Shown here piece after piece: positions 1 to 54,281 of a stretch of DNA of 64,000 bases (the stretch's first letter is position 1; every line of letters begins with the position of its first letter). The notes beneath the pieces were generated by a model that was not told the origin of the DNA, ran no database searches, and saw only the letters and a program-made list of their open reading frames with translations. Both the position numbers and the translations under genes were made by a program. The stretch lies in assembly GCA_000004985.1 (NCBI GenBank), contig GG738898.1, one strand, 5' to 3'. This DNA is from Naegleria gruberi. Taxonomy: Eukaryota.

Positions 1-795
1 NNNNNNNNNNNNNNNNNNNNNNNNNNNNNNNNNNNNNNNNNNNNNNNNNNNNNNNNNNNNNNNNNNNNNNNNNNNNNNNNNNNNNNNNNNNNNNNNNNNN
101 NNNNNNNNNNNNNNNNNNNNNNNNNNNNNNNNNNNNNNNNNNNNNNNNNNNNNNNNNNNNNNNNNNNNNNNNNNNNNNNNNNNNNNNNNNNNNNNNNNNN
201 NNNNNNNNNNNNNNNNNNNNNNNNNNNNNNNNNNNNNNNNNNNNNNNNNNNNNNNNNNNNNNNNNNNNNNNNNNNNNNNNNNNNNNNNNNNNNNNNNNNN
301 NNNNNNNNNNNNNNNNNNNNNNNNNNNNNNNNNNNNNNNNNNNNNNNNNNNNNNNNNNNNNNNNNNNNNNNNNNNNNNNNNNNNNNNNNNNNNNNNNNNN
401 NNNNNNNNNNNNNNNNNNNNNNNNNNNNNNNNNNNNNNNNNNNNNNNNNNNNNNNNNNNNNNNNNNNNNNNNNNNNNNNNNNNNNNNNNNNNNNNNNNNN
501 NNNNNNNNNNNNNNNNNNNNNNNNNNNNNNNNNNNNNNNNNNNNNNNNNNNNNNNNNNNNNNNNNNNNNNNNNNNNNNNNNNNNNNNNNNNNNNNNNNNN
601 NNNNNNNNNNNNNNNNNNNNNNNNNNNNNNNNNNNNNNNNNNNNNNNNNNNNNNNNNNNNNNNNNNNNNNNNNNNNNNNNNNNNNNNNNNNNNNNNNNNN
701 NNNNNNNNNNNNNNNNNNNNNNNNNNNNNNNNNNNNNNNNNNNNNNNNNNNNNNNNNNNNNNNNNNNNNNNNNNNNNNNNNNNNNNNNNNNNNNN
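1..795. other. Assembly gap (N-run) at the window start
   Basis: 795 consecutive n characters. The next feature's ORF is open into it. Confidence 0.99.
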
Positions 796-1464: not shown

Positions 1465-2619
1465 AACCATAAAGAAATTCAAATTAATTGTTATCTTGAT
1501 CATTCCGATAATTTCCACCTCCTTCTCTTACTCATTCAATTTGATATTGAATTCTAAACATGTCCATTATCCAACAGTGTACATTTTCCAATTAGGAAAA
1601 AAATGGTTGTTATTTTAATCGTGGTATAAATAATTTTTTAACTGACAAACAAAACCATCATATAGGAAAAGTCTAGACTAACAATCTAAGGATTGTCTAC
1701 TTGATTGTTGTTGCTATTAAGAGTTAATTCTTGGCCTCTAATAATTCTAATAACTGTAACTGCAGCAAAGGAAGTACAAAAAATTCTCGCAACAAGAATT
1801 TTGGAGACAAAAAAAATTGTGGCTCAGATGGCTCCTCTAAAAGGAACCGGAAAACGTGTTCTTTGCTTCAACAACTTTAAAAAAACTACACAACAACCAC
1901 TACCATCATCATGAATACATCACCACTTCCTCGTACTCCTTGCTCTCCAAGTGATCAATCCCATCATCACTCGAATTGTTCACAAATTTCTAGGACAAAC
2001 ACTTCAATTTTATCTTCCTATCCACACAAAATCTACACAATACAGATTGTGCCTTCCATAAAACCAGAAAAATCAGAGAATAACTCAGAGTCTCTGAATG
2101 GACCTGGATTTTACTTCAAGAAGGTTTGTCCAACGAAATCAACACAAAAGACAATAAGAAATAATTTGAGGGAGAGTATCCAAAGATCAACAGACAAGAT
2201 TACAAAGAAAAGAAAAATGTAGCTACTGTTGTACCCTAAATGTATTTTGAAATTGAAATAAATAAAAGTCATGTATTTTAAATTATTATTGAATAATATT
2301 TATTATGTCAGCAATACTTTCCTCGTTCTGTCAGTCAGATTTCTTCTTGCACTTGGGGTTTGTTTCAACAGCCCAATGAAGCAATGCTTGGTCTAAGAAT
2401 GAAACGATAGTTAAATATCCTTATTTGCCCTCTCCAATTACGACATAATCAGTGTAACTTTTGCCTTTGATAGGGATCAATCAGTTACTCCAATGCAATG
2501 AAAAGGATCTCATCTTCATTCATCAATTGAATCATAATGTTGTTAATGTTAATCAAATCCAGGGTAGAAAAGTTGCTCACATCAGACATATCAAGGACTT
2601 AATTTCATCTTGAATGTAT

Positions 2620-2691
2620 TCCCGTGTAGTCCAATGGCTAGGATACCTGGCTTTCACCCAGGAGGTCCGGGTTCAATTCCCGGCATGGGAG
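2620..2691 (+). tRNA. tRNA-Glu (anticodon TTC)
   Basis: The 72-nt sequence TCCCGTGTAGTCCAATGGCTAGGATACCTGGCTTTCACCCAGGAGGTCCGGGTTCAATTCCCGGCATGGGAG folds as a cloverleaf. The acceptor stem is TCCCGTG/CATGGGA with one G-T pair. The D-arm, the anticodon stem CCTGG/CCAGG with loop CTTTCAC, and the T-arm CCGGG-TTCAATT-CCCGG are all present. CCA is not encoded, as expected for a eukaryote. Confidence 0.85.
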
Positions 2692-3359
2692 AATAATTTT
2701 GATTTTGGGTTCGAATTCGTGTTCAACAATGAAGAATCGAATAATAGCATTACCCGATCGAAAGTACCAGGCTTGGATTGGTAGTATTTTTGCTTCATTG
2801 TCAACTTATAATAAAATGTGCATAAGGAAAGAGGAGTATGATGAAACTGGACCAAATATCGTTCATAGAAAGTGAATCGAATAAATATCACAGAAATGCT
2901 TCATTAATGATTGACGCCTTATCTTCCAACAACATATTTCCATCAACTACTGTAGACCAAAGATAATTTTATTTATGGAAGACTTCCAATATTCACTTCA
3001 GATCTTTCTTCAAGAAATTTCGAGCAAATTGATTTAAAGTGTTGTAAGAGATATATTGATTATTTCGAAAGTTTAAAACAGAACAGTATTGGACGAAAAA
3101 GATGAAAGAAAAATAATTTTCAATGTCAAAGCAAAAGAATGTAAGGTAGAACCATTTACAATATACACATACCGCATTCACCAACCTTGGTTAGTTTTGG
3201 AGCTTATTCGAGCTTTGAAGGATTTTTGAATGTTGAATTTGAATGGAAATTGTTGGGTGAATTCTCTGGTTTAACAATGTTAGTGATTGATTACGATCGG
3301 AACACATTAGGTGCTGTCCATGGTACGAAATTATTGCATCACGTTTTAAAAGAAATTTT

Positions 3360-4706
3360 CTACCAATCAACCTCTTTGTAATTCTTGTATAATTTTCCAT
3401 ACTTGAAACTTCCAGAAAGGATAGGGTGCAGAACTCTGAAGGCAGCATCAAGATCAGTAAGAGGAGGAGCTCTATATGCAGGTAAAGCAGAGGATACCCA
3501 ACCAGTATCTACACTATTCACCAAAATTCCATTTCTAGCATAATATTCGCTGCAACTCCTCGTTAGCATATTTAGACTTGCCTTACTAGTATTGGTTTGA
3601 ATATGACTATCAGATTTCCCACTCGTCTCAAATTGTCCCTCATGAGAAGTGACATTGATTATAAAACTATGCCCAAAACGAACTGAATGATGGATGTCAT
3701 TTTCTTCTAAATCTTGGCTGTCATCATATGATGGTTTCATAATTTCAAACAACTCTGAAGCTAGAATGGTTGGAGAAACGGTATTAATCATTTGAGATTC
3801 TACAATTTCAGTGACGGATACATCAGAAAGCTTCTCATTCCAAGAGTTTGTAGGCCTATAATCGACTTGTTCTCCCCAAATATCTTTTTCACCTTTAGGA
3901 AAGTAATCATAAGTCAATGACGCATCATCTAATCTGGTTTCAGTTGACTTGGTAATTTCAATAGATTTCTCGATAAGGTTTGAATCATTTTCATGAATAA
4001 TTGGCATGGCACTTTCTTCACTTTTGGTCAGGTACTTTTGTTCAGACTTTAACAGTGATTTGTAGTATTCTAGTGGCCGTTTTACAGTCTGGGCAGCATT
4101 GTTAATTAATATATGGATTTGTTTGAAATTCTTCTTGATATATTGAGTGAAATCAATAACTGACTTTCCATCTTTGAGATTTAGTGGGTATATCAATAAT
4201 CTATCGTACCACTCAGAAAAGTCTTTACATTTCTTAAACTTTAACAGAGCGTCAGATGCAAATCTGGTTTCTTTTGTAAAATATATAGTTAAAAATACTT
4301 ACCTAGTAGTAACAATAACTTTCGCACCCAACCTCAACAAAACGAGAGCAGTTTGAAGACCAATCTTGATTCTCCCTCCAGTTACAATGGCTGCCTTATC
4401 ACAAAGAAGATTACTGGGATATGAGTATTCTCTAATTGCGTCATTGAAATGATTACAATGTGAGCACATGGAATGTCTATTATCTAGATGTTTTTCTCCT
4501 CCTCTCCTATTCGTGACACTGTACTTGCGTTGAGTTTTGTAATGAATATATTTACCACATAAATAGCATTTGAAGAAGTTGTACTTTTCTCGTAGATGAC
4601 TCTCAAAATATCCCTCAAGAAAGTAATGAGAGAGATCAACACTGAATAACTGTCTCAAAGATTTTACAAAATAGTGAATATCCTCTGTGGTAATGTGGTG
4701 CTTAAT
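3360..4706 (-). CDS. Short-chain dehydrogenase/reductase (SDR) with a Cys/His-rich N-terminal extension. It has 2 exons, and its 5' end runs into the gap.
   Basis: The Rossmann motif AAIVTGGRIKIGLQTALVLLRLGAKVIVTTR lies at 4303..4400 on the minus strand. The exon ends AG|GTAAGT with the donor at 4302. A 39-nt intron spans 4264..4302 and ends AAACCAG. Exon 2 (3360..4263) continues FASDALLKF...HILINNAAQT (the NNAG motif) and ...NVTSHEG...TSKASLNMLTRS (a degenerate YxxxK region). Upstream of the Rossmann fold there are about 130 aa containing CYLCGKY...CSHCNH. The ORF is open into the N-run at 4707. Confidence 0.75.
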
Positions 4707-4895
4707 NNNNNNNNNNNNNNNNNNNNNNNNNNNNNNNNNNNNNNNNNNNNNNNNNNNNNNNNNNNNNNNNNNNNNNNNNNNNNNNNNNNNNNNNNNNNNN
4801 NNNNNNNNNNNNNNNNNNNNNNNNNNNNNNNNNNNNNNNNNNNNNNNNNNNNNNNNNNNNNNNNNNNNNNNNNNNNNNNNNNNNNNNNNNNNNNN
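4707..4895. other. Assembly gap (189 N) removing the 5' ends of two divergent genes
   Basis: N-run. Both flanking ORFs read away from the gap and are open into it. Confidence 0.99.
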
Positions 4896-6843
4896 ATCAC
4901 TCTCTAATAAGGCGCTCAATCTTGGTGGTACATTCTACCTTCCATATAGACACCACTATTCTGTAGAACAATTATTGGAGGCATATCCTTCCTTTACTGA
5001 GTTTGTCGGTTTCAAAAAGTACCTAGATCCAAACAGAGTCTTTAATAATATGTGGTTTGATAACTATTCAAAGCTTGTGGAAAATAAGTTTGGAACCATT
5101 AGCCCAAAGCCAATTTCTATTTCTCCATTTGTTAGTTTATTCCCAAACAACAACACTTTCATCAATAACAAGAATTATCATTTTATGACTAGTTTGGGTA
5201 AACAAGTTAACCAGAGTAGAGTTTTTGATTTTTTGAGATATGTCTTTCCAGTAGTTGATGCTAAAGAATTCCAAAGATTTCTTTTGATAAATAAGCAGCT
5301 AGACGACAAGCAACTTTACAACTTAATTCAATCAAATTACCTTAATTCAAACATTTCAAAAGCGAAGATATTATTTAATCTTGTAAGATATAACACGTTC
5401 ATACTTGCTAAAGAAATTGAAAGGCAAATATCTGAATTACTTGAAAGCAATATCCTTCACAATAGAAAGTTTGATGGCCAGTTGACCATTGGAGATTGTG
5501 GAAGATTTACAAATTTATTGAAGAAGAAATTCAAAGTTAGTGGCTCATCCTTTGTAGTCAATGATAAAGAAAGAGCAACCGATGTATTAGAGAGGAAATC
5601 TTTAACACCAGTCGGTAAATTTGTACCATATGATCAATTACACGATATTCCTTCTAATAGTGTAGATTTAATAACTTGTTTCATAGGATTGCATCACTAC
5701 ACTGACACAGAACTAAACTTGTACATGAAAGAACTCAAAAGAATTCTTAGACCTAATGGAATATTTATTTTGAGAGAGCACGATGTGGACAACGAACACA
5801 TGGAATCTATGGTTCATGTAGCTCACAATATTTTCAATGCCCTGACAGGTTTGACATTTGAGGATAATGAGAAGGAATTCAGACACTTCAGATCTATGAA
5901 AGAATGGAATAGCATTTGCAAATCATTTGGATTTTACAACTTGGAAAATTATCAACTTCAACATGGCGACTCCACAATAGATTTAATGACTGCCTACGTT
6001 AATGAAAAAGATGGTGATCATGCATCCACAAATGTCACCAATCCTATTGATAGTTCTATTGGAAATTTGATGAATATTACAGATAAGGATTACAAAAGAG
6101 ATCAAAACAAGACAGATTTTACCATACCAGAGTGGTTCACAGTTGAAATTGTTCAACACATGGGACGCTTCTTGCAACATACTCCTTGGTATGATTATCC
6201 ATATAATCATACTATTTCCAAATTCTGGAAACTCTTCTTCAACTCTTGTACAAGAGTAATGAAGAGGGATGGATTGAAACAAGTCTTTGCAGGATACTTC
6301 TTTATGAATCTGACTATTGGAGCTATTTCATCCATACTCCTTGCACAAATGGGTATTTTGGCAATGCTTCCTCGTTTTGGATCAAAATTCTTCAATAATA
6401 CAACTGCCAATATTACAACTATTCAGGCAATTATTTCTGCTAAGGAAGATATAAGATCCACCCTTGAAAAATGTGACATTCACATCATTAATGAAACTAT
6501 GAATGACAAGAGAGAATATCTTTATCATGTCAAATTACCAAGATTCCTCCCATTCACACAATCACTTCAACACCTCGCAAAACAAACTCCATATGCACAA
6601 CTAGAGGAAATTGCTGGCAATCAAATGGTCAATGTTAAAATCACTATCAGAAATCCAAACATTATCAAATTCAGCTCCCTTGTCAAGTGCCAAGAAATTG
6701 AAAATTATCAAGTTGTACCAAATAATGAGCATCACAACGAGACTGTCATTATCTATTCTGTCTCTGTAAAAAATCTAATTCAATTTTTGAGAGAAGCAAT
6801 GAATCAGACTGGACTAGAACAAATCCAGATTCATGATTTTTAA
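4896..6843 (+). CDS. 5'-truncated multidomain protein combining a sugar-1,4-lactone-oxidase (ALO/GULO)-like FAD-oxidase C-terminal tail, a class I SAM-dependent methyltransferase-like domain and a long C-terminal region
   Basis: The ORF is open from the first base after the gap. The N-terminal ...LGGTFYLPYRHHYSVEQLLEAYPSFTEFVGFKKYLDPNRVFNNMWFDNY matches the conserved C-terminal end of ALO/GULO-type FAD-linked oxidases (YP.F.EF...R..LDP.G.F.N.Y). Downstream methyltransferase motifs are TIGDCGRFT (motif I-like), VVNDKERA (acidic motif II) and VDLITCFIGLHHYTD...LKRILRPNGIFILREHDV (motifs III/IV). A hydrophobic stretch AGYFFMNLTIGAISSILLAQMGILAML follows. Stop at 6841-6843. Confidence 0.6.
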
Positions 6844-7085: not shown

Positions 7086-7872
7086 TTGAAAGCACTGAAA
7101 AATCCAATGTTGAAATACGAAACAATTCTAAAGGATGTTCAAAATTTGAATCAAGATCCAAAGAAAAATAAGAAATTGATCCAAGCTCTAATCGAACGCT
7201 TTCCAAAATCATTGCAGATCTTTAAAGATCCACTTGATTTAAATACAAATCTCATAATGAAGGTCCTAGCACGTGATGGTACTGCTATTCGATTCCTACC
7301 AGAAAGTTGGAGAAATGATCAAATAGTGTTACAGGCAGTTAAGAGTATTCCAAATGCTCTTGAATTTGCATCTGACGAATTGAAAAACAAATTTAAAATT
7401 GTTAAGGCGGCTTGTAGACTCAAGCAAATTCCTCCGTCGTGGAATTGTCAAATTTACAGATGAATCATTGAAGAAGGATAAGGATTTTATCATTCAATTA
7501 TGGAGCTTCCTTGATCCACCTCTCGATTTTATGAAAGAGTTTCCACTAACGATGGAGGATTATATTGAAAGTGTGAAATTGAAAAATGGTCCCTTTTCGA
7601 ATTTGAGTGAGGAACTGAGATGCAACAGGGAATTTGTCAAGAAAATTGTTACAATTATTCATCCTTACAGATTTTGGACGTTACTGCCACTGTCTATTCA
7701 ATCAGATAAGGAAATAGTTCTACTAGCCATTCAGCATGGTCTGAGCCCATTTTTCTTGCATAAAGAAATGAAGGATGATCCATACGTTTCCAAAATATTA
7801 GTGGAAAAGTATCTAAATGCATCAGATATTGAATTGATATATGATAAATTTCATCGAAGCTTGTTTGAATAA
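7086..7872 (+). CDS. DUF4116-repeat protein interrupted by a 1-nt frameshift near 7430-7445 (assembly indel or pseudogene)
   Basis: Two overlapping ORFs, 7086..7463 and 7399..7872, in different frames both carry DUF4116-type repeats: IVLQAVKSIPNALEFASDELKNKFKIVKAA, then VKFTDESLKKDKDFIIQLWS and DKEIVLLAIQHGLSPFFLHKEMKDD. The repeat register continues only if the frame shifts between ...RLKQIPPS and IVKFTDESL. No GT-AG intron fits this position. Confidence 0.6.
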
Positions 7873-45786: not shown

Positions 45787-48700
45787 CTATCTTTTCTGTT
45801 GCAGTTCGATAAATTTTCGAAGACCTTTAAAGTTGGGAAGTGGCTGAAGTTGGTTGAGGTTTAGCGACCTTAGAATGGAATTGACTTCTGAGAAGTGTAC
45901 ATTTGGAGGGTTGAGTTGAGGTTGGTGATCGAATATGAATGGTTCAATAGTGAGATTTTCACCAAGGTTCAAGTGCAATAAGCATTCATCATTAGGTGTT
46001 GATAGAACCTCAATGAAAGGGAAGATTGAAGAGTGCATAATTCTCTGATGAAGAGAAATCGAAAAAAGGAAAATTCCATTCATGGTGAAGTAAACCTCAC
46101 CTTGCTCTGTCAAACCACATCCAATTGTATCTCCACAATGTGCAATTATTTCCAATTCCTTATAAAGTATTTCCTTTTTATCGGCAGACATTATACAGCC
46201 GAATCCTTCCTGTGCCTGAAATGCATATTTTCTATCAACACAATTATTCTCACTAATGTTTGATCTGGCCATCAGTCCAATAGAAACCTTGGAGGATATC
46301 AATCGATGGATTTGAACTTCATAGTAGAATACAGTTTTCATGGAGGGTTTTCTAATGTTGGCAGATGGATTACCAAATCGCCTAGTTTCTGCAATTTCTG
46401 GTTGGAAAAAGAAGAGAGAATCTTTGGTGGTTAGTGACATTTTGGTAGCTCTAGAAGAAACAAAGTGTAGAGTTCGTTCATTATCCAATACCTTGAGTGG
46501 TGATCCTTGAAGATTTACAAGGTGTGAAAAATCTGCTTTGGTTTCAATAGGTACTGGACTATAGTTTCCAAGGTAGTGGTTGATGAGCTCTTTTTCATTT
46601 CCAAGAGTACTGTTTGGATGGTTATCAAAGTGGAAAACCTTGATATCGTTAGGATTCAAATTGTTACAGAGTAAATGATAAATCAATGTTTGTCTATCAA
46701 CGTAGGAGTAATTTTTCAAAAGGCCGAAAGTTAACAGACCACTACCGGTTGGAATGAGATAGTACATGCTATTTGGAAGTCCACATACATTATTATCTCC
46801 AACTATTGCCCCGAATTTCGTATTTCCAATTGTATGGTAGGTTGTAAACTTTTCAAGACTGAAGAAATCATAGAGGAAATTATTCATTACTCCTAGTACT
46901 CTATCTGCAGCACTCTCATCACCAGTGTCAAGAGCCAAGTTCAGTATCTTGGCAAGTTTTTGCCACACTGGTTTGATGATTGCTCTTCTGTGATGGAAAG
47001 GAATCTCATTGAAAACCTCGACTAGTATTGGCTCGATATTGTAATTTGGAGAAAGTAGAGTGGCATAGCCTGGTTCAATGAGTGAAATGTATGTATAGAT
47101 TCCTCTCAATAATTGAGTCTTTTTCTCTGAAAGTGGATCTGAAGATCTGCCAATTTTGCTTTGATTTCTTTCGAGCCACAAACAATAACCAACACGAGTT
47201 GACTTGTCATATTTGCAAAGGAAGAAGATTATTTTCAAGCAGGAAAGGGTGAAGAAAAATTCTGGACTATGGAAAACCTTGGCATGGATAAAATTCAAAA
47301 TACAAGTTGTGGAATATCTTCCCAATTCGTCAACAAGTAAGGAGGAGGTTTCATTTCTCATTTCTCTGATTATTCTCTTAATGTGTCTCTTATCTGTTTG
47401 ATTGTCATAGTATGTGAGTACTTGAGAAATTATACTCAGTGTGCTCTTGAAAATCTCATCATACATCTCATTCAACTCTACACTTGACTCTGTGTGAGCT
47501 CGATCTGAGAATAATTTTCTGGAAATGTAGAACATCAAAACGGGGAGGACTCTATACTCTGACATTAATTCGCAACATTTCTGCCGTAATTTTTCATTGG
47601 AGAGCAAGTCTTTCATGCCAAGAATGGATTTCTTAACAAAAAGACTGCTTGTGTCAAGTCCACTCAAAAATCCTAACAAGGATTCCGGCTTACTGAGAAT
47701 ATTCAACAATTGAGATGAGTCATTCTCAAAGATGAATCTCCATGTTTGTATGACTGGGTGTTCTAATAGTTCAGCTGCACTTTTTCTTTCCTCCCTAGCA
47801 CACACCATCATTTTCACAATTCTTTTTGATCCAATGTCAAATACATGTTCATGAATAAACTCAAAGTAGTGATTCGAACGCATAAATAACCAAAAGTCAA
47901 TATTATACCGTCTTGCTCTTTGATCGATTAATTGTTGGAAATCCTTCACAGTTAAAGTAGCCGAAACTTGCATAAAGATAATTCCTAGACTGTAAACATC
48001 AACTTTGTAATCATATTCAGCTCCAGGTTTAACCTCAGGAGCAACATAGGCCCGAGTACCACAAATAGTTGATGTAGAGTTTTGATGAACAAGTTGCTTA
48101 GCAAGACCAAAATCAATAATTTTCAAAGTAATCTTTCTAATTTCTTCCTCAAAATTATTCTTTAAATTATCAGAATCATATTGCACAATAATGTTTTGCG
48201 GTTTCAAATCTCTGTGAATAACCTTATTTTGATGGAGATAATTCATGACTTCGAGTAATTTGATGAACCATGAGAATCTGACATCCATGGTCAAAGTTTT
48301 GAGACCCTTACTTTCCTTTGTAATTTCATTCAAATCAGAAATAAACTGATCCAATATTTTACCACTACAATATTCCATAAGAATGCAGTAGTATCTCTTG
48401 TTAATGTCCATGAATGAGTCATAATATTTCACAATATTTGGATGATCCAGCATCATCATTAATTTCACTTCCTTTTCCTGATAGTCATTGATTGTGATTC
48501 TTTTTAGAGCAAAAATTCTATTGGTTCCAACTTGGACAACTCTGAATACAGTTCCATAAGATCCTTCTCCTAACTGCTCAAGTAGTTGGAAGGATTTTGT
48601 TTTCTTGNNNNNNNNNNNNNNNNNNNNNNNNNNNNNNNNNNNNNNNNNNNNNNNNNNATCGAAAGAGTTTGCGTTTCCGTTCATTACAAAATTCTTTTGG

Positions 48701-49941
48701 AAATTTGATGATGAATGAGATTTCTTTGAGGAGTGAGTTTTGCTTGTTTCAGAAGGTTTCGTCTCAATTTCTGATAGGCCCATGAGATCATACTCATCAT
48801 CATTGTCTGCAGTACTTCTTCTACCATCTTGAGGTTCGGATTTACCAGATCCCTCATCACTCACAAACAGAACATCACTATTGAAATCATGATTAACTTG
48901 TTGCTGAGGATTGGATGTAGTAGAAGGTTTAGATGCATGTAAAAATGCATTACTTTTAAAAGGTGAAGATCCAAAATCAATATCCATCTCATCAAATTCA
49001 TCCTGTGTTATTGGTGTGATCATGAAATTAGGTGTCGTGTTTTGAACTGGTTGTTGGATTGGTGAATGTATTGTATTAATGTTGAACGATCCAAAATTCT
49101 GATCAATATCATACCTCTCATCATCGTCGTCATCAATGAGATCGAACGATTCGAGGGCATCGTTTGGATTTGGCTTTTTAGGCACTGAGCTATAAGCAGG
49201 AGTTACACTAAAAGCAGGTGAAATTACAGAGATAGGTTGAGAATTTTTTGAAGACATGAATTCATCATCATCCTCATCGTCTTCCTCAATAACGAAAGAA
49301 TCGACTAGTTTCGTATTGGCAAGATTACTTCTTATTGTTCCTGTTGTCGAATATGAATTTGATGGAGATGGAACATAACTATTCGAAGGAGATTGAACAT
49401 ACAATGGAGATGGAGTAAACGTGAGAGGCACTTGTGGATAGTTATGATGATTGTGAAATTGACTCGGAAAATATGCTTGTTGTTGGTTTGTATTTACATT
49501 TCTCGTATTATTATGTTGTTGATGATTAAGAAAGAGAGGTGGAGATGATGATGTAGTATTTGTTTGTGGAAAACCATTTTGATTCGGCTGTTGTTGATTA
49601 GAATTTGGATGGAACACAAAATTATTATTCATCATGAATGGTGGCAATGTTTGACCGCCATTCATCATTTGATTATTGCCAATCAATGGAGAACCCATCA
49701 TTATTCTCGTGTTCGGTGAAGAAGCAGGTGAAGAAGTATTCGAATCTGCAGAGTTTCGTCCATTCATCGAAGGAGACGATGAAGGAGAAACTAGAATAGC
49801 CTTCCTCCTCTGTCTTCCACCTCCTACCTTTGGACTTGATGAATTAGGTGGTGATATCGAAGAAGCTCCTCCTCCACTTGATGATGACGAAGGCTGTATG
49901 AAATTCCTATTCGGTGATGTTGGATATCCATTCATGATCAT
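45787..49941 (-). CDS. Large protein kinase (about 1384 aa) with a low-complexity N-terminus, a central kinase domain, a long middle region and a C-terminal SPRY/B30.2-like domain. It contains a 50-N gap.
   Basis: The kinase motifs are LGEGSYGTVFRV, IFALKRI, HRDLKPQNIIV, DFGLAK and VAPE. The C-terminal FYYEVQIHRL...VSIGLMARS...GFGCIMSADKKEIL...GDTIGCGLTEQGEVYFTMNGIFL has the SPRY pattern (YyFEV.i...gv.iGl.........G....g.w.....g........f..GDviGc..d...g...Ft.NG). The N-run 48608..48657 lies inside the ORF, which stays in frame across it. Confidence 0.8.
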   Translation of the reverse strand: MIMNGYPTSPNRNFIQPSSSSSGGGASSISPPNSSSPKVGGGRQRRKAILVSPSSSPSMNGRNSADSNTSSPASSPNTRIMMGSPLIGNNQMMNGGQTLPPFMMNNNFVFHPNSNQQQPNQNGFPQTNTTSSSPPLFLNHQQHNNTRNVNTNQQQAYFPSQFHNHHNYPQVPLTFTPSPLYVQSPSNSYVPSPSNSYSTTGTIRSNLANTKLVDSFVIEEDDEDDDEFMSSKNSQPISVISPAFSVTPAYSSVPKKPNPNDALESFDLIDDDDDERYDIDQNFGSFNINTIHSPIQQPVQNTTPNFMITPITQDEFDEMDIDFGSSPFKSNAFLHASKPSTTSNPQQQVNHDFNSDVLFVSDEGSGKSEPQDGRRSTADNDDEYDLMGLSEIETKPSETSKTHSSKKSHSSSNFQKNFVMNGNANSFDXXXXXXXXXXXXXXXXXKKTKSFQLLEQLGEGSYGTVFRVVQVGTNRIFALKRITINDYQEKEVKLMMMLDHPNIVKYYDSFMDINKRYYCILMEYCSGKILDQFISDLNEITKESKGLKTLTMDVRFSWFIKLLEVMNYLHQNKVIHRDLKPQNIIVQYDSDNLKNNFEEEIRKITLKIIDFGLAKQLVHQNSTSTICGTRAYVAPEVKPGAEYDYKVDVYSLGIIFMQVSATLTVKDFQQLIDQRARRYNIDFWLFMRSNHYFEFIHEHVFDIGSKRIVKMMVCAREERKSAAELLEHPVIQTWRFIFENDSSQLLNILSKPESLLGFLSGLDTSSLFVKKSILGMKDLLSNEKLRQKCCELMSEYRVLPVLMFYISRKLFSDRAHTESSVELNEMYDEIFKSTLSIISQVLTYYDNQTDKRHIKRIIREMRNETSSLLVDELGRYSTTCILNFIHAKVFHSPEFFFTLSCLKIIFFLCKYDKSTRVGYCLWLERNQSKIGRSSDPLSEKKTQLLRGIYTYISLIEPGYATLLSPNYNIEPILVEVFNEIPFHHRRAIIKPVWQKLAKILNLALDTGDESAADRVLGVMNNFLYDFFSLEKFTTYHTIGNTKFGAIVGDNNVCGLPNSMYYLIPTGSGLLTFGLLKNYSYVDRQTLIYHLLCNNLNPNDIKVFHFDNHPNSTLGNEKELINHYLGNYSPVPIETKADFSHLVNLQGSPLKVLDNERTLHFVSSRATKMSLTTKDSLFFFQPEIAETRRFGNPSANIRKPSMKTVFYYEVQIHRLISSKVSIGLMARSNISENNCVDRKYAFQAQEGFGCIMSADKKEILYKELEIIAHCGDTIGCGLTEQGEVYFTMNGIFLFSISLHQRIMHSSIFPFIEVLSTPNDECLLHLNLGENLTIEPFIFDHQPQLNPPNVHFSEVNSILRSLNLNQLQPLPNFKGLRKFIELQQKR
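48608..48657. other. Assembly gap (50 N) inside the kinase-SPRY gene
   Basis: N-run. Confidence 0.99.
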
Positions 49942-52547: not shown

Positions 52548-54281
52548 TTATTCTTCATCATTTTCAACTTCGACAATATTTTCATCATCCACAAGTACGT
52601 CCATGACATCTTCAACATCTTCGACCTTTTCTTCAGTAAAGATCATTTGCTTTTCTGCCAAGTTTCTATAGATACCTTGTGGAATCTTAATGAGCTCGCT
52701 GTGAGTGCCCTTTTCTTTCATGACACCCTTAACTAAGACACAGATAACATCTGAATTAATGACAGTTGTCAATCTGTGAGCAATACAAATGGTTGTTCTT
52801 CCCTTCATCAATTCATCCAAAGCAGCTTGAACTAATCTTTCAGATTCAGTATCGAGAGCAGATGTGGCTTCATCCAATAAGAGAATCTTTGGATCTTGCA
52901 AGAGAGCTCTTGCAATGGCAATTCTTTGTTTTTGACCACCAGACAAGGAAACACCCTTTTCACCCAAAATAGTGTCATACTTTTCAGGCAAATCCATAAT
53001 AAAGCTGTGAGCATTAGCTCTCTTGGCAGCATTTTCAACTTGTTCCATGGTGACAACTTTACCAGATTCGACACTATCATTAGGACCTAACAAGGCATAG
53101 GCAATGTTATATTTGATTGTTCCAGCAAATAATACAGGTTCTTGTGAGACAATACCCAAACAATTTCTGTGCAACCACATTGGATCGAGCTCAGCAACAT
53201 CAACTCCATCAATCTTAATTGTACCCTTATTTGGAGTATAGAATTTTTCTAAAAGACCTACAATGGTTGACTTGCCTGAACCTGATGGACCAACCAAAGC
53301 AATTTGTTGACCAGATTTGATATCCAAACTGAAATCAGTCATGACATTAGTATTTGGACGAGATGGGTAAGCGAAATCAACTCCAGTAATTTCAATATCA
53401 CCCTTAACTTGTTCAATCTTCTTACCACCCATGAATGGAATGGCTGGTTCTCNNNNNNNNNNNNNNNNNNNNNNNNNNNNNNNNNNNNNNNNNNNNNNNN
53501 NNGACATTGTATGTGAGAACAGAAAGTAAGTGGTGAGGTACTGACAAGAATGAGAGCCATTCTCCAATTGACAGTCATACTCAAAATGAAACCAACAATA
53601 AATTGAATGATTTCTTGCATGAAAATGAAGAATTCGTTTGTGTAAACATCTTGAATCTTTGGAATATCTTCACTGAGAACTACAGTGACACTACCAATCT
53701 TCTTAATATCGAAGAAACTCATTTCTTGTTTAGCCAATGCTGACATGTAAGCTCTTCTCATTGAAGTTCCCAATCTGGCATTTGACAATTGCAAGAAGAA
53801 ATGTTGCATACCGAAAGCAGCCATACCACAGAATGTAAGAATAGTGAGCTTTTTACAGAGATCGTCAACTGCTTCATAAGCAAGAGCTGTTTTCTGTTCT
53901 GTTGTTAAGGTTGATGATGTGGCATTTGCAAAACTGTCAATCAAATCTCCCAAAATATATTGAACAACTAGAATAAGGTTAATACTATTTGAAATTCGAA
54001 TACTATTACTACATACTAATAGGAATCAAACCATAAGCCATTGCACCAATACATCCAATAGCGATCAGTAAACAATTCCATCCAAAAATTCTCAACATGT
54101 GTAAATGAGAGAAGAAACCAATCTTTGGTTCTCTGTCATCTTTGATTTCATCACCAACTGGTTGTTGTTTCTTTGATTTCTTTGAAGTGTCATCTCTTTT
54201 TCTTCTCCTAATGATACGTTGTCTTCTTGTTGGTTGTTGCACTTCTTCCTTATTTTCAGGATTATCACTTTGAGCTGGCAT
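52548..54281 (-). CDS. Half-size ABC transporter, ABCB-type (TMD-NBD). It has 2 exons with a 49-nt intron at 53968..54016, and contains a 50-N gap.
   Basis: Exon 1 (54281..54017) reads MPAQSD...basic RRQRIIRRRKR...first TM helix...GLIPI + A, with the donor GTATGT. The acceptor is TTCTAG. Exon 2 (53967..52548) holds the TM helices and the NBD, with Walker A GQQIALVGPSGSGKST, the signature LSGGQKQRIAIARALL, Walker B ILLLDEATSALD and the H-loop TTICIAHRL. The N-run 53453..53502 splits the ORF track into two frames. Confidence 0.85.
53453..53502. other. Assembly gap (50 N) inside the ABC transporter gene
   Basis: N-run. Confidence 0.99.

What the first reader, a model, noticed from the sequence alone, without database searches (positions are those of the whole stretch)
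4299..6843. Scaffold gap removes the 5' ends of two divergent genes; the downstream gene is an unusual ALO-oxidase-tail and methyltransferase fusion
The 189-N gap at 4707..4895 is flanked on the left by a minus-strand SDR whose ORF is still open into the gap. There are about 130 aa of Cys/His-rich sequence upstream of the Rossmann fold. It is flanked on the right by a plus-strand ORF that begins mid-domain with the conserved C-terminal tail of sugar-1,4-lactone oxidase-type FAD enzymes (YPSFTEFVGFKKYLDPNRVFNN). The FAD-binding domain that must precede it (at least 350 aa) cannot fit in 189 bp together with the SDR's 5' end, so the gap is under-sized or the join is wrong. Downstream of the oxidase tail the same ORF carries a complete class I SAM-methyltransferase motif set and a hydrophobic segment. 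I do not recognise this domain combination from any described enzyme.
Basis: partly seen in the sequence, partly recalled or inferred. Interest (0 to 1): 0.55.

Follow-up and report, generated by a model that had tools for sequence, protein, structure and literature searches.

The report
Gap-truncated oxidase–methyltransferase gene in Naegleria
An assembly gap in the Naegleria gruberi genome hides about 3 kb, including the front of a real three-part flavin-oxidase/methyltransferase gene that is also found in other amoebae, giant viruses and many bacteria, and that nobody appears to have characterised.

Summary
The window is Naegleria gruberi. The 189-N gap (4707-4895) cuts two divergent genes.

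Left side: a 97.8%-identical metagenome contig shows that 1,670 nt of the SDR gene and its upstream region belong in the gap.

Right side: the ORF 4897-6843 is colinear with residues 482-1193 of the intronless N. lovaniensis orthologue, so about 480 codons are missing. At least about 3.1 kb is hidden. The gap is grossly under-sized, or less likely the join is wrong.

The fusion is real and conserved. It has three modules, not two: a VAO/PCMH flavoenzyme of the lactone-oxidase/DprE1 clade, a class I methyltransferase, and a C-terminal module with no Pfam model (a helical bundle plus two ACT-like folds).

In 51 bacterial genomes the same modules occur in the same order as three genes, as two genes, or fused. 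Giant viruses and amoebae carry the full fusion. Naegleria and Willaertia form a clade (100/100 bootstraps).

The SDR adjacency is not conserved.

Function is untested. I infer sequential oxidation and methylation of one membrane-associated substrate. I found no curated family or paper describing it.

The parts
4707..4895 (.). Scaffold gap of 189 N. It stands for at least about 3.1 kb of real sequence.
   Evidence: N run. L002 positions 1-1670 extend beyond window 4706. About 480 codons are missing on the right.
4897..6843 (+). 3' part (648 codons plus stop) of the single-ORF oxidase-MTase-C-module gene. The public model P0001 starts at the internal Met at 5050.
   Evidence: 42% identity, colinear with N. 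lovaniensis residues 482-1193.
4951..5064 (+). C-terminal element of the VAO-type flavoenzyme (the 'ALO tail', YLPYRHHYS...DPNRVFNN).
   Evidence: Pfam ALO 24.7 bits, profile 220-257 of 258. Aligns colinearly only with DprE1 C-termini in the PDB, and not significantly.
5179..5448 (+). Helical linker between the oxidase and the MTase (P0001 residues 44-133).
   Evidence: AlphaFold2 model, pLDDT above 90.
5470..6003 (+). Class I (Rossmann-fold) SAM-methyltransferase module (P0001 residues 141-318). It has the variant motif I IGDCGRF and the invariant GLHH, REH, AHNxFN and ExRxF residues.
   Evidence: Pfam Methyltransf_11, AF2 model, Foldseek matches to class I MTases at E about 1e-7, invariant columns.
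6052..6840 (+). C-terminal module: a three-helix bundle followed by two ferredoxin-like (ACT-like) domains, ending in IQIHDF. No Pfam or NCBIfam model covers it.
6283..6366 (+). Conserved hydrophobic helix inside the C-module (P0001 residues 412-439).
   Evidence: Kyte-Doolittle scan of 13 homologues.
4303..4706 (-). Visible 3' end of SDR exon 1 (135 codons): a CxxC-x30-CxxC zinc-ribbon-like motif (4455-4568) and the start of the Rossmann fold (from 4394).
   Evidence: 96% identical to residues 516-650 of P0059.
4264..4302 (-). 39-nt intron of the SDR gene (GTAAGT...CCAG).
   Evidence: Read from the sequence. The spliced protein is colinear with Acrasis P0058.
3360..4263 (-). SDR exon 2, including the stop codon.
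   Evidence: adh_short 37.9 bits. 98% identical to P0053.

Best explanation
Shown. The window holds the last 648 codons of the Naegleria gruberi orthologue of a conserved, intronless gene of about 1,050-1,200 aa. An assembly gap has swallowed its first 480 or so codons: the N-terminal leader, the FAD_binding_4 domain and the substrate (cap) domain. The same gap has swallowed 515 codons plus the promoter region of the divergently transcribed SDR gene. The 189 N therefore stand for at least about 3.1 kb. The gap size is wrong, or less likely the two contigs are mis-joined.

Shown. The protein has three modules in a fixed order:
1. a VAO/PCMH-type flavoenzyme of the lactone-oxidase/DprE1/CKX clade;
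2. a helical linker and a class I SAM methyltransferase;
3. a three-helix bundle with a hydrophobic helix, followed by two ACT-like ferredoxin folds.

Inferred. These three modules are separate but adjacent genes in many bacteria and are progressively fused in others, so they probably act as one machine on one substrate. Most homologues carry an N-terminal hydrophobic anchor before the flavin domain, which points to a membrane location. My committed model is that the flavin domain dehydrogenates a hydroxyl of a membrane-associated substrate, possibly sugar-, polyol- or lipid-linked. That is the chemistry of its nearest curated relatives. The MTase then methylates the same molecule, and the C-module tethers the enzyme or binds a ligand. 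The substrate, and the order of the two steps, are not established.
For: - Species and gene model: P0001, 'predicted protein [Naegleria gruberi]', is 100% identical.
- Left flank: L002 positions 1671-3117 match window 4706-3253 at 97.8% identity. Its exon 1 ORF is 650 aa with an ATG at position 126.
- Right flank: the fragment is colinear with N. lovaniensis P0291 residues 482-1193, down to the shared IQIHDF end. P0291 is one 3,582-bp ORF.
- All full-length homologues have FAD_binding_4, the tail and the MTase.
- Rosetta-stone series: the C-module is a separate adjacent gene in Berkiella and in a Bacteroidota-like contig (hhalign 99.9% and 98.7%). It lies downstream on the same strand in 43 of 51 bacterial loci, usually within about 30 bp. 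The layouts are 3 genes (about 580, 285 and 365 aa), 2 genes, or 1 gene.
- No other neighbour recurs widely.
- Confident AF2 models. Class I MTase fold.
- Nearest flavoenzyme families: TIGR01678 lactone oxidase and DprE1; GLDH at 3e-33 and DprE1 at 1e-27 in the PDB profile search.
- Hydrophobic anchors.
- Heterolobosean clade in 100 of 100 bootstraps, Naegleria pair in 89 of 100. Surrounding genes are ordinary cellular genes.
Against: - The missing N. gruberi sequence itself was not recovered. A search with the Willaertia FAD half found no Naegleria fragment, although that search also failed to re-list P0002 itself. Two metagenome scans found nothing.
- True adjacency of the two flanks is unproven. 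The orthologues are not neighbours in N. lovaniensis, and in Willaertia they lie on different contigs.
- No experiment, curated family or paper supports any function.
- MTase motif I is non-canonical, so SAM binding is inferred from the fold only.
- Stand-alone oxidases and stand-alone MTase+C-module proteins exist in virus-like contigs without adjacency, so the modules are not always physically linked.
Confidence: 0.85

Rival explanations
1. The scaffold join is wrong. The contig ending at 4706 and the contig starting at 4896 are not neighbours in the genome, so the divergent gene pair is an assembly artefact. Both genes would still be truncated by contig ends.
For: A 189-bp estimate is irreconcilable with at least 3.1 kb of missing sequence. 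There is no synteny: N. lovaniensis has a PAS-guanylate cyclase upstream and no SDR nearby. The Willaertia orthologues are on different contigs.
Against: Synteny between these very divergent genomes (about 42-45% protein identity) is weak in general. The far end of L002, 111 nt upstream of the SDR ATG, carries an ATG in the opposite orientation in an A-rich context like that of the SDR start. That is compatible with a divergent gene start, but only 14 nt are available. A wrong gap-size estimate is a simpler error than a false join (inference).
Confidence: 0.12
2. The sequenced strain, or one of its haplotypes, carries a real deletion of about 3 kb that truncates both genes. The gap size would then be roughly right and both genes would be pseudogenes.
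For: The gap size would be correct. Assemblies often break at heterozygous indels (inference only).
Against: Both reading frames run intact right up to the gap edges. The left flank is 97.8% identical to an intact gene in a related strain up to the last base before the Ns. The retained 648 codons have no stop and keep all the family-invariant residues.
Confidence: 0.04
3. Alternative mechanism on the BfaA/BfaB (TmsA/TmsB) logic. The MTase first adds a methylene to a double bond of a membrane lipid, and the flavoenzyme then acts as a reductase, giving a methyl-branched lipid.
For: BfaA (a FAD-binding oxidoreductase) and BfaB (a methyltransferase) are co-transcribed neighbours that make 10-methylstearate in two steps (PMC5660069). 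An engineered TmsA-B fusion is active (PMC7762315). Membrane anchors are present. A patatin gene and alpha/beta-hydrolase genes are neighbours in some bacteria.
Against: BfaB-type enzymes are cyclopropane-fatty-acid-synthase-like (my own knowledge), and no such family is hit here. Only generic Methyltransf_11/25/23 are found. The gene order here is always oxidase then MTase. The flavin domain's nearest curated families are alcohol-oxidising enzymes. I could not fetch BfaA to compare it directly.
Confidence: 0.15
4. The neighbouring SDR is a functional partner, in the manner of DprE1 (flavoenzyme) with DprE2 (SDR), which together epimerise a lipid-linked sugar through a keto intermediate.
For: DprE1 is among the best-scoring relatives of the flavin half, and an SDR lies head-to-head with it in this scaffold.
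Against: The adjacency is not conserved in N. lovaniensis, nor on the Willaertia contigs. No SDR recurs in the 51 bacterial loci. This SDR belongs to a distinct heterolobosean family with a long N-terminal extension.
Confidence: 0.04

Closest known systems
Database homologues of the same family: N. lovaniensis XP_044545640.1 (1,193 aa), Willaertia magna ABK040_006980, Fadolivirus 'FAD/FMN-containing dehydrogenase with methyltransferase domain', Tupanvirus 'oxidoreductase, FAD-binding', Ca. Berkiella aquae 'FAD-binding protein'
   Same: Same module order and the same invariant residues. 42-45% identity within Heterolobosea and 25-33% to the rest.
   Different: The N. gruberi copy is incomplete in the assembly, and its public model (P0001) starts at an internal Met. 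None of the homologues has an experimentally known function.
DprE1 and the aldonolactone oxidoreductases (ALO, GULO, GLDH): VAO/PCMH flavoenzymes
   Same: FAD_binding_4 domain and the same type of C-terminal tail. These are the best curated and solved matches.
   Different: Scores are far below the family cut-offs (96 vs 397 bits; at most 98 vs 500 bits). None of these enzymes carries a fused MTase or the C-module.
BfaA/BfaB (TmsA/TmsB) 10-methylstearate system
   Same: A FAD-binding oxidoreductase and a SAM methyltransferase encoded side by side, acting in two consecutive steps on a membrane lipid (PMC5660069).
   Different: The MTase is of a different type, with no CFA-synthase-like hit here. 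There is no third module. Relatedness of the flavoproteins could not be tested.
MnmC, the bifunctional tRNA-modification enzyme (from my own knowledge)
   Same: One polypeptide with a FAD oxidoreductase and a SAM MTase that act in sequence on one substrate.
   Different: The MnmC flavin domain belongs to the DAO/glutathione-reductase-type family, not VAO/PCMH. The domain order is reversed, it is soluble, and it has no C-module. No Pfam or NCBIfam match to such a family appeared.

Membership tests
VAO/PCMH flavoenzymes (Pfam FAD_binding_4, PF01565) | FAD-binding PCMH domain | not testable with these tools
   In N. gruberi the region lies in the gap. It is met in every full-length homologue (84.6-96.6 bits against a cut-off of 26.4) and in the N. 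lovaniensis orthologue.
Pfam ALO (PF04030) | Score above the gathering cut-off | tested here: met
   24.7 bits against 23.1, but only for the last 38 of the 258 profile positions.
Sugar 1,4-lactone oxidases (NCBIfam TIGR01678) | Whole-protein score above the curated cut-off | tested here: not met
   The orthologues score 70-100 bits against a cut-off of 396.8.
DprE1 (NCBIfam NF053785 equivalog) | Whole-protein score above the curated cut-off | tested here: not met
   73-98 bits against a cut-off of 500.
Class I SAM-dependent methyltransferases | Rossmann-like MTase fold and a Pfam family hit | tested here: met
   Methyltransf_11 at 33.4 bits against 21.2. AF2 model with alternating strands and helices. 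Foldseek probability 1.00 to many class I MTases.
Class I SAM-dependent methyltransferases | Canonical motif I, (D/E)xGxGxG | tested here: inconclusive
   The sequence is IGDCGRF. Two glycines are invariant across 35 homologues (G148 and G151 of P0001), and an acidic residue follows strand 2 (VVND). SAM binding was not tested.
BfaB/TmsB-type (CFA-synthase-like) methyltransferases | Match to the cyclopropane-fatty-acyl-phospholipid-synthase family | tested here: not met
   No such Pfam family appears at E <= 0.1, at E <= 0.01 in homologues, or in the stand-alone bacterial MTase.
ACT domains | beta-alpha-beta-beta-alpha-beta fold plus family sequence signature | tested here: inconclusive
Short-chain dehydrogenases/reductases (the neighbouring gene) | adh_short domain | tested here: met
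   Exon 2 scores 37.9 bits against 26.6. Exon 1 carries the TGGxxxIG start.

The most novel reading that the evidence does not exclude
The gene belongs to an undescribed three-component system: a membrane-anchored VAO-type flavoenzyme, a methyltransferase, and a helical/ACT-like subunit with no family model. It exists as an operon in free-living bacteria of many phyla and has fused into one protein in Chlamydiales, giant viruses and amoebae. It would carry out a two-step modification of a common membrane-associated metabolite that has not yet been discovered.
Probability: 0.5. Interest if true: 0.55.

Novelty: new variant of a known kind. Interest (0 to 1): 0.4.

Why it matters
For the genome: two N. 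gruberi gene models at this locus are wrong. The public protein P0001 lacks its whole flavin half, and the SDR lacks 515 residues. About 3 kb of sequence is missing and can be recovered with one PCR or with existing long reads.

For biology: the split-to-fused series across bacteria, Chlamydiales, giant viruses and amoebae gives a clean, testable prediction that three proteins of unknown function work together. Culturable bacteria such as Spirosoma, Leptospira yanagawae and Cognatilysobacter offer a tractable route to the function of a gene that giant viruses and amoebae share.

Tried and rejected
1. Looked for the FAD half elsewhere in the window by tblastn. Nothing found.
2. Searched with the Willaertia FAD half for a Naegleria N-terminal fragment. 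None was found, but the word-indexed search did not even re-list P0002, so the absence is weak evidence. That index also missed the N. lovaniensis orthologue; only the exhaustive search found it.
3. P0173, a 524-aa protein on a 1.9-kb contig, was considered as the missing half and rejected. It is a complete stand-alone oxidase with its own stop codon and a different tail.
4. Two wobble-degenerate DNA scans of JGI metagenomes for an N. gruberi-like contig crossing the gap gave 0 hits.
5. Willaertia gives no upstream synteny, because its gene starts at the contig end.
6. The idea of a viral island was rejected. The neighbours are Sel1, a protein kinase, G-alpha, a Rad51-like ATPase and LRR genes, and GC content is uniform.
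The BFVD search of the C-module gave nothing significant.
8. PADLOC gave nothing meaningful.
9. The local Pfam copy does not reproduce the precomputed PF26128 (Gad2) hit on the SDR extension.
10. Literature searches for the fusion found no description.
11. The first attempt at a genome scan with alignment A1 failed for lack of a conserved stretch. It succeeded with alignment A3.
Full report
WHAT IS THERE

The window is AT-rich eukaryotic DNA (about 33% GC). It comes from Naegleria gruberi: the plus-strand ORF after the gap is 100% identical to the NCBI 'predicted protein [Naegleria gruberi]' P0001. The N run is exactly 4707-4895, 189 bases. The other N runs are 1-795, 48608-48657 and 53453-53502.

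LEFT FLANK (SDR gene, minus strand)

- The minus-strand frame is open from 4302 into the gap.
- The apparent stop at 4299-4301 sits in a 39-nt intron, GTAAGT...CCAG, at 4264-4302.
- The spliced product reads ...KVIVTTR|FASDALLKF... and is colinear with the Acrasis kona homologue P0058 across the junction. The SDR body is therefore exon 2 (3360-4263), which scores 37.9 bits on adh_short.
- The visible 135 codons of exon 1 carry CxxC-x30-CxxC and then the TGGxxxIG start.
- A 3,173-bp ENA metagenome contig, L002, matches window 4706-3253 at 97.8% identity over its positions 1671-3117. Its exon 1 ORF, P0059, is 650 aa and begins at an ATG at position 126.
- So 515 codons plus 125 nt of upstream DNA, 1,670 nt in all, lie inside the gap on this side alone.
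- That N-terminal extension is homologous to the Acrasis protein (E 2e-50). It carries a precomputed Pfam PF26128 (Gad2) hit, which my local Pfam copy could not reproduce.

RIGHT FLANK (oxidase-MTase gene, plus strand)

- The frame 4897-6840 has no stop codon.
- Pfam finds the last 38 positions of the ALO profile at aa 19-56, and Methyltransf_11 at aa 202-292.
- Full-length relatives of about 1,040-1,290 aa all have FAD_binding_4, then this tail, then the MTase. They place the GGTFYLPY motif at residue 423-471, whereas it is at residue 10 here.
- The exhaustive search recovered the N. lovaniensis orthologue P0291 (XP_044545640.1, 1,193 aa). It is one uninterrupted 3,582-bp ORF.
- Its residue 482 aligns with residue 2 of the window fragment, and the two are colinear to the shared C-terminus IQIHDF at 42% identity. 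About 480 codons, or 1.44 kb, are therefore missing on this side.
- No FAD domain lies elsewhere in the window.

Together, at least about 3.1 kb must sit where 189 N are written. I could not recover the N. gruberi sequence itself, so I cannot distinguish an under-sized gap (which I favour) from a false join.

THE PROTEIN HAS THREE MODULES

AlphaFold2 on a 35-sequence alignment gives a confident model of P0001, with mean pLDDT 86.9. It shows:
- a helical linker at residues 44-133;
- a Rossmann-type MTase at residues 141-318;
- a C-terminal module at residues 335-597, after a disordered loop.

Foldseek matches the MTase to many class I SAM-dependent small-molecule C- and O-methyltransferases at E about 1e-7, with no specific affinity. 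Motif I is the non-canonical IGDxGR, with two invariant glycines. GLHH, REH, AHNxFN, ExRxF and an Asp are also invariant.

The flavin half of the orthologues is closest to sugar-1,4-lactone oxidase (TIGR01678) and DprE1 (NF053785), but scores far below their cut-offs. In the PDB, GLDH, DprE1 and cytokinin dehydrogenases lead. The 60-aa tail taken alone aligns colinearly only with DprE1 C-termini, and not significantly.

COMPARATIVE EVIDENCE THAT THE MODULES WORK TOGETHER

- In Ca. Berkiella aquae and in a Bacteroidota-like contig, the shorter FAD-MTase protein is flanked by an unannotated 340-363-aa gene. That gene is the C-module (hhalign 99.9% and 98.7%), ending in the same ...IHDF.
- A scan of one genome per bacterial or archaeal species found 51 loci. 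They include Spirosoma, Larkinella, Mucilaginibacter, Flavobacterium, saprophytic Leptospira, Cognatilysobacter, Acidobacteriota, Planctomycetota, Burkholderiales, Myxococcota, Chlamydiales and Berkiella.
- A C-module HMM hits an ORF downstream on the same strand in 43 of the 51 loci, usually within about 30 bp.
- The gene layouts form a complete series, always in the order oxidase, MTase, C-module:
  - three genes (about 580, 285 and 365 aa) in many Bacteroidota;
  - two genes (a FAD-MTase fusion of about 740-890 aa, then the C-module) in Leptospira, Cognatilysobacter and others;
  - one gene (1,230 aa) in a Chlamydiales MAG.
- No other neighbour recurs widely. An alpha/beta hydrolase follows the cassette in 8 loci.
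- Most bacterial, viral and Arcella versions have hydrophobic segments ahead of the flavin domain.
- In giant-virus-like contigs, stand-alone oxidases (41-46% identical to the Willaertia flavin half) occur without an adjacent MTase. MTase+C-module proteins of about 560 aa are also common in the exhaustive search, though their sources are mostly unnamed.

ORIGIN

A neighbour-joining tree on 536 columns groups N. gruberi with N. lovaniensis in 89 of 100 bootstraps, and both with Willaertia in 100 of 100. This clade sits inside the fully fused group of giant viruses, an Arcella transcript and metagenome sequences, and apart from the bacterial split-gene group. The neighbouring genes in the window are ordinary cellular genes. 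The gene is therefore a long-standing resident of vahlkampfiid genomes and not a recent viral insertion or a contaminant. The direction of older transfers is unresolved.

THE SDR NEIGHBOUR

A DprE1/DprE2-like partnership was considered. N. lovaniensis has no SDR next to its orthologue. The Willaertia orthologues lie on different contigs. No SDR recurs in the bacterial loci. The adjacency is most likely incidental.

MECHANISM (INFERENCE)

The fixed order and the repeated independent fusion argue for consecutive action on one substrate at a membrane. I favour hydroxyl dehydrogenation by the flavin domain followed by methylation, because that matches the chemistry of the nearest curated relatives. 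The alternative is the BfaA/BfaB logic, methylenation followed by flavin-dependent reduction (PMC5660069; PMC7762315). It is weakened by the absence of a CFA-synthase-type MTase. Nothing here identifies the substrate.

NOVELTY

The domain combination is present in public databases under automatic names. I found no curated family, no solved structure and no paper describing it. My verdict is an ordinary assembly artefact lying over a real, conserved but uncharacterised three-module enzyme family.

Noticed in passing
window 4303-4706 (-) and L002:126-2078: The SDR gene has a 650-aa first exon in a 98%-identical strain. It begins with an F-box-like start (LPSELLEEMMCF...), has a region carrying a precomputed Pfam PF26128 'Gad2' hit with a GG...DxD nucleotidyltransferase-like motif, then a 4-Cys zinc ribbon, and then the SDR. 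This architecture is shared with Acrasis kona (P0058) and P0057.
   Followed up: partly
window 4264-4302 (-): A very short (39-nt) spliceosomal intron with GTAAGT and CAG ends.
   Followed up: yes
window 5050: The public N. gruberi gene model (P0001, 597 aa) starts at the first Met after the oxidase tail, so it omits the tail and the whole flavin half.
   Followed up: yes
window 7086-7872 (+): Two overlapping ORFs in different frames both carry DUF4116 repeats. This is probably one gene split by an intron or a frameshift. DUF4116 genes also lie near the stand-alone oxidase on a giant-virus-like contig (L007).
   Followed up: partly
window 1-795, 48608-48657, 53453-53502: Further N runs. The window starts inside a 795-N gap. 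A 1,384-aa ORF (45787-49941, minus strand) runs through the 50-N gap at 48608-48657, and a 339-aa ORF (52548-53567, minus strand) through the one at 53453-53502, so those gene models may also be affected.
   Followed up: no
L003:6961-7980, L004:10598-11686 and the downstream ORFs of L012-L061: Bacterial stand-alone C-module proteins contain the EW...FLxHTPWYxFPY...FW helix motif twice. The fused eukaryotic and viral versions have it once.
   Followed up: partly
L010:10001-10240 (N. lovaniensis P0291 residues 1-80): The N. lovaniensis orthologue has a basic, Ser/Thr-rich N-terminus (10 K/R against 1 D/E in 80 residues), which resembles an organelle-targeting presequence. Viral and bacterial homologues have a hydrophobic anchor there instead.
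   Followed up: no
L002:1-60: At the far end of the metagenome contig, 111 nt upstream of the SDR ATG, the opposite strand reads AAAAAAATGAAACGATTGGT. This could be the start of the divergent oxidase gene (M-K-R-L...), but only 14 nt are available.
   Followed up: no
L019, L023, L025, L040, L043, L051, L059, L060: An alpha/beta-fold hydrolase gene lies in 8 of the bacterial loci, directly downstream of the C-module gene in six of them. In Chryseobacterium a patatin-like gene precedes a related stand-alone oxidase (L008). These are weak hints of an ester or lipid substrate.
   Followed up: partly
P0014: A full-length homologue is labelled 'Perkinsus sp. BL_2016', but it groups closely with a sequence from a 560-kb metagenome contig (P0011). 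The taxonomic label may reflect a contaminant or an associated virus.
   Followed up: no
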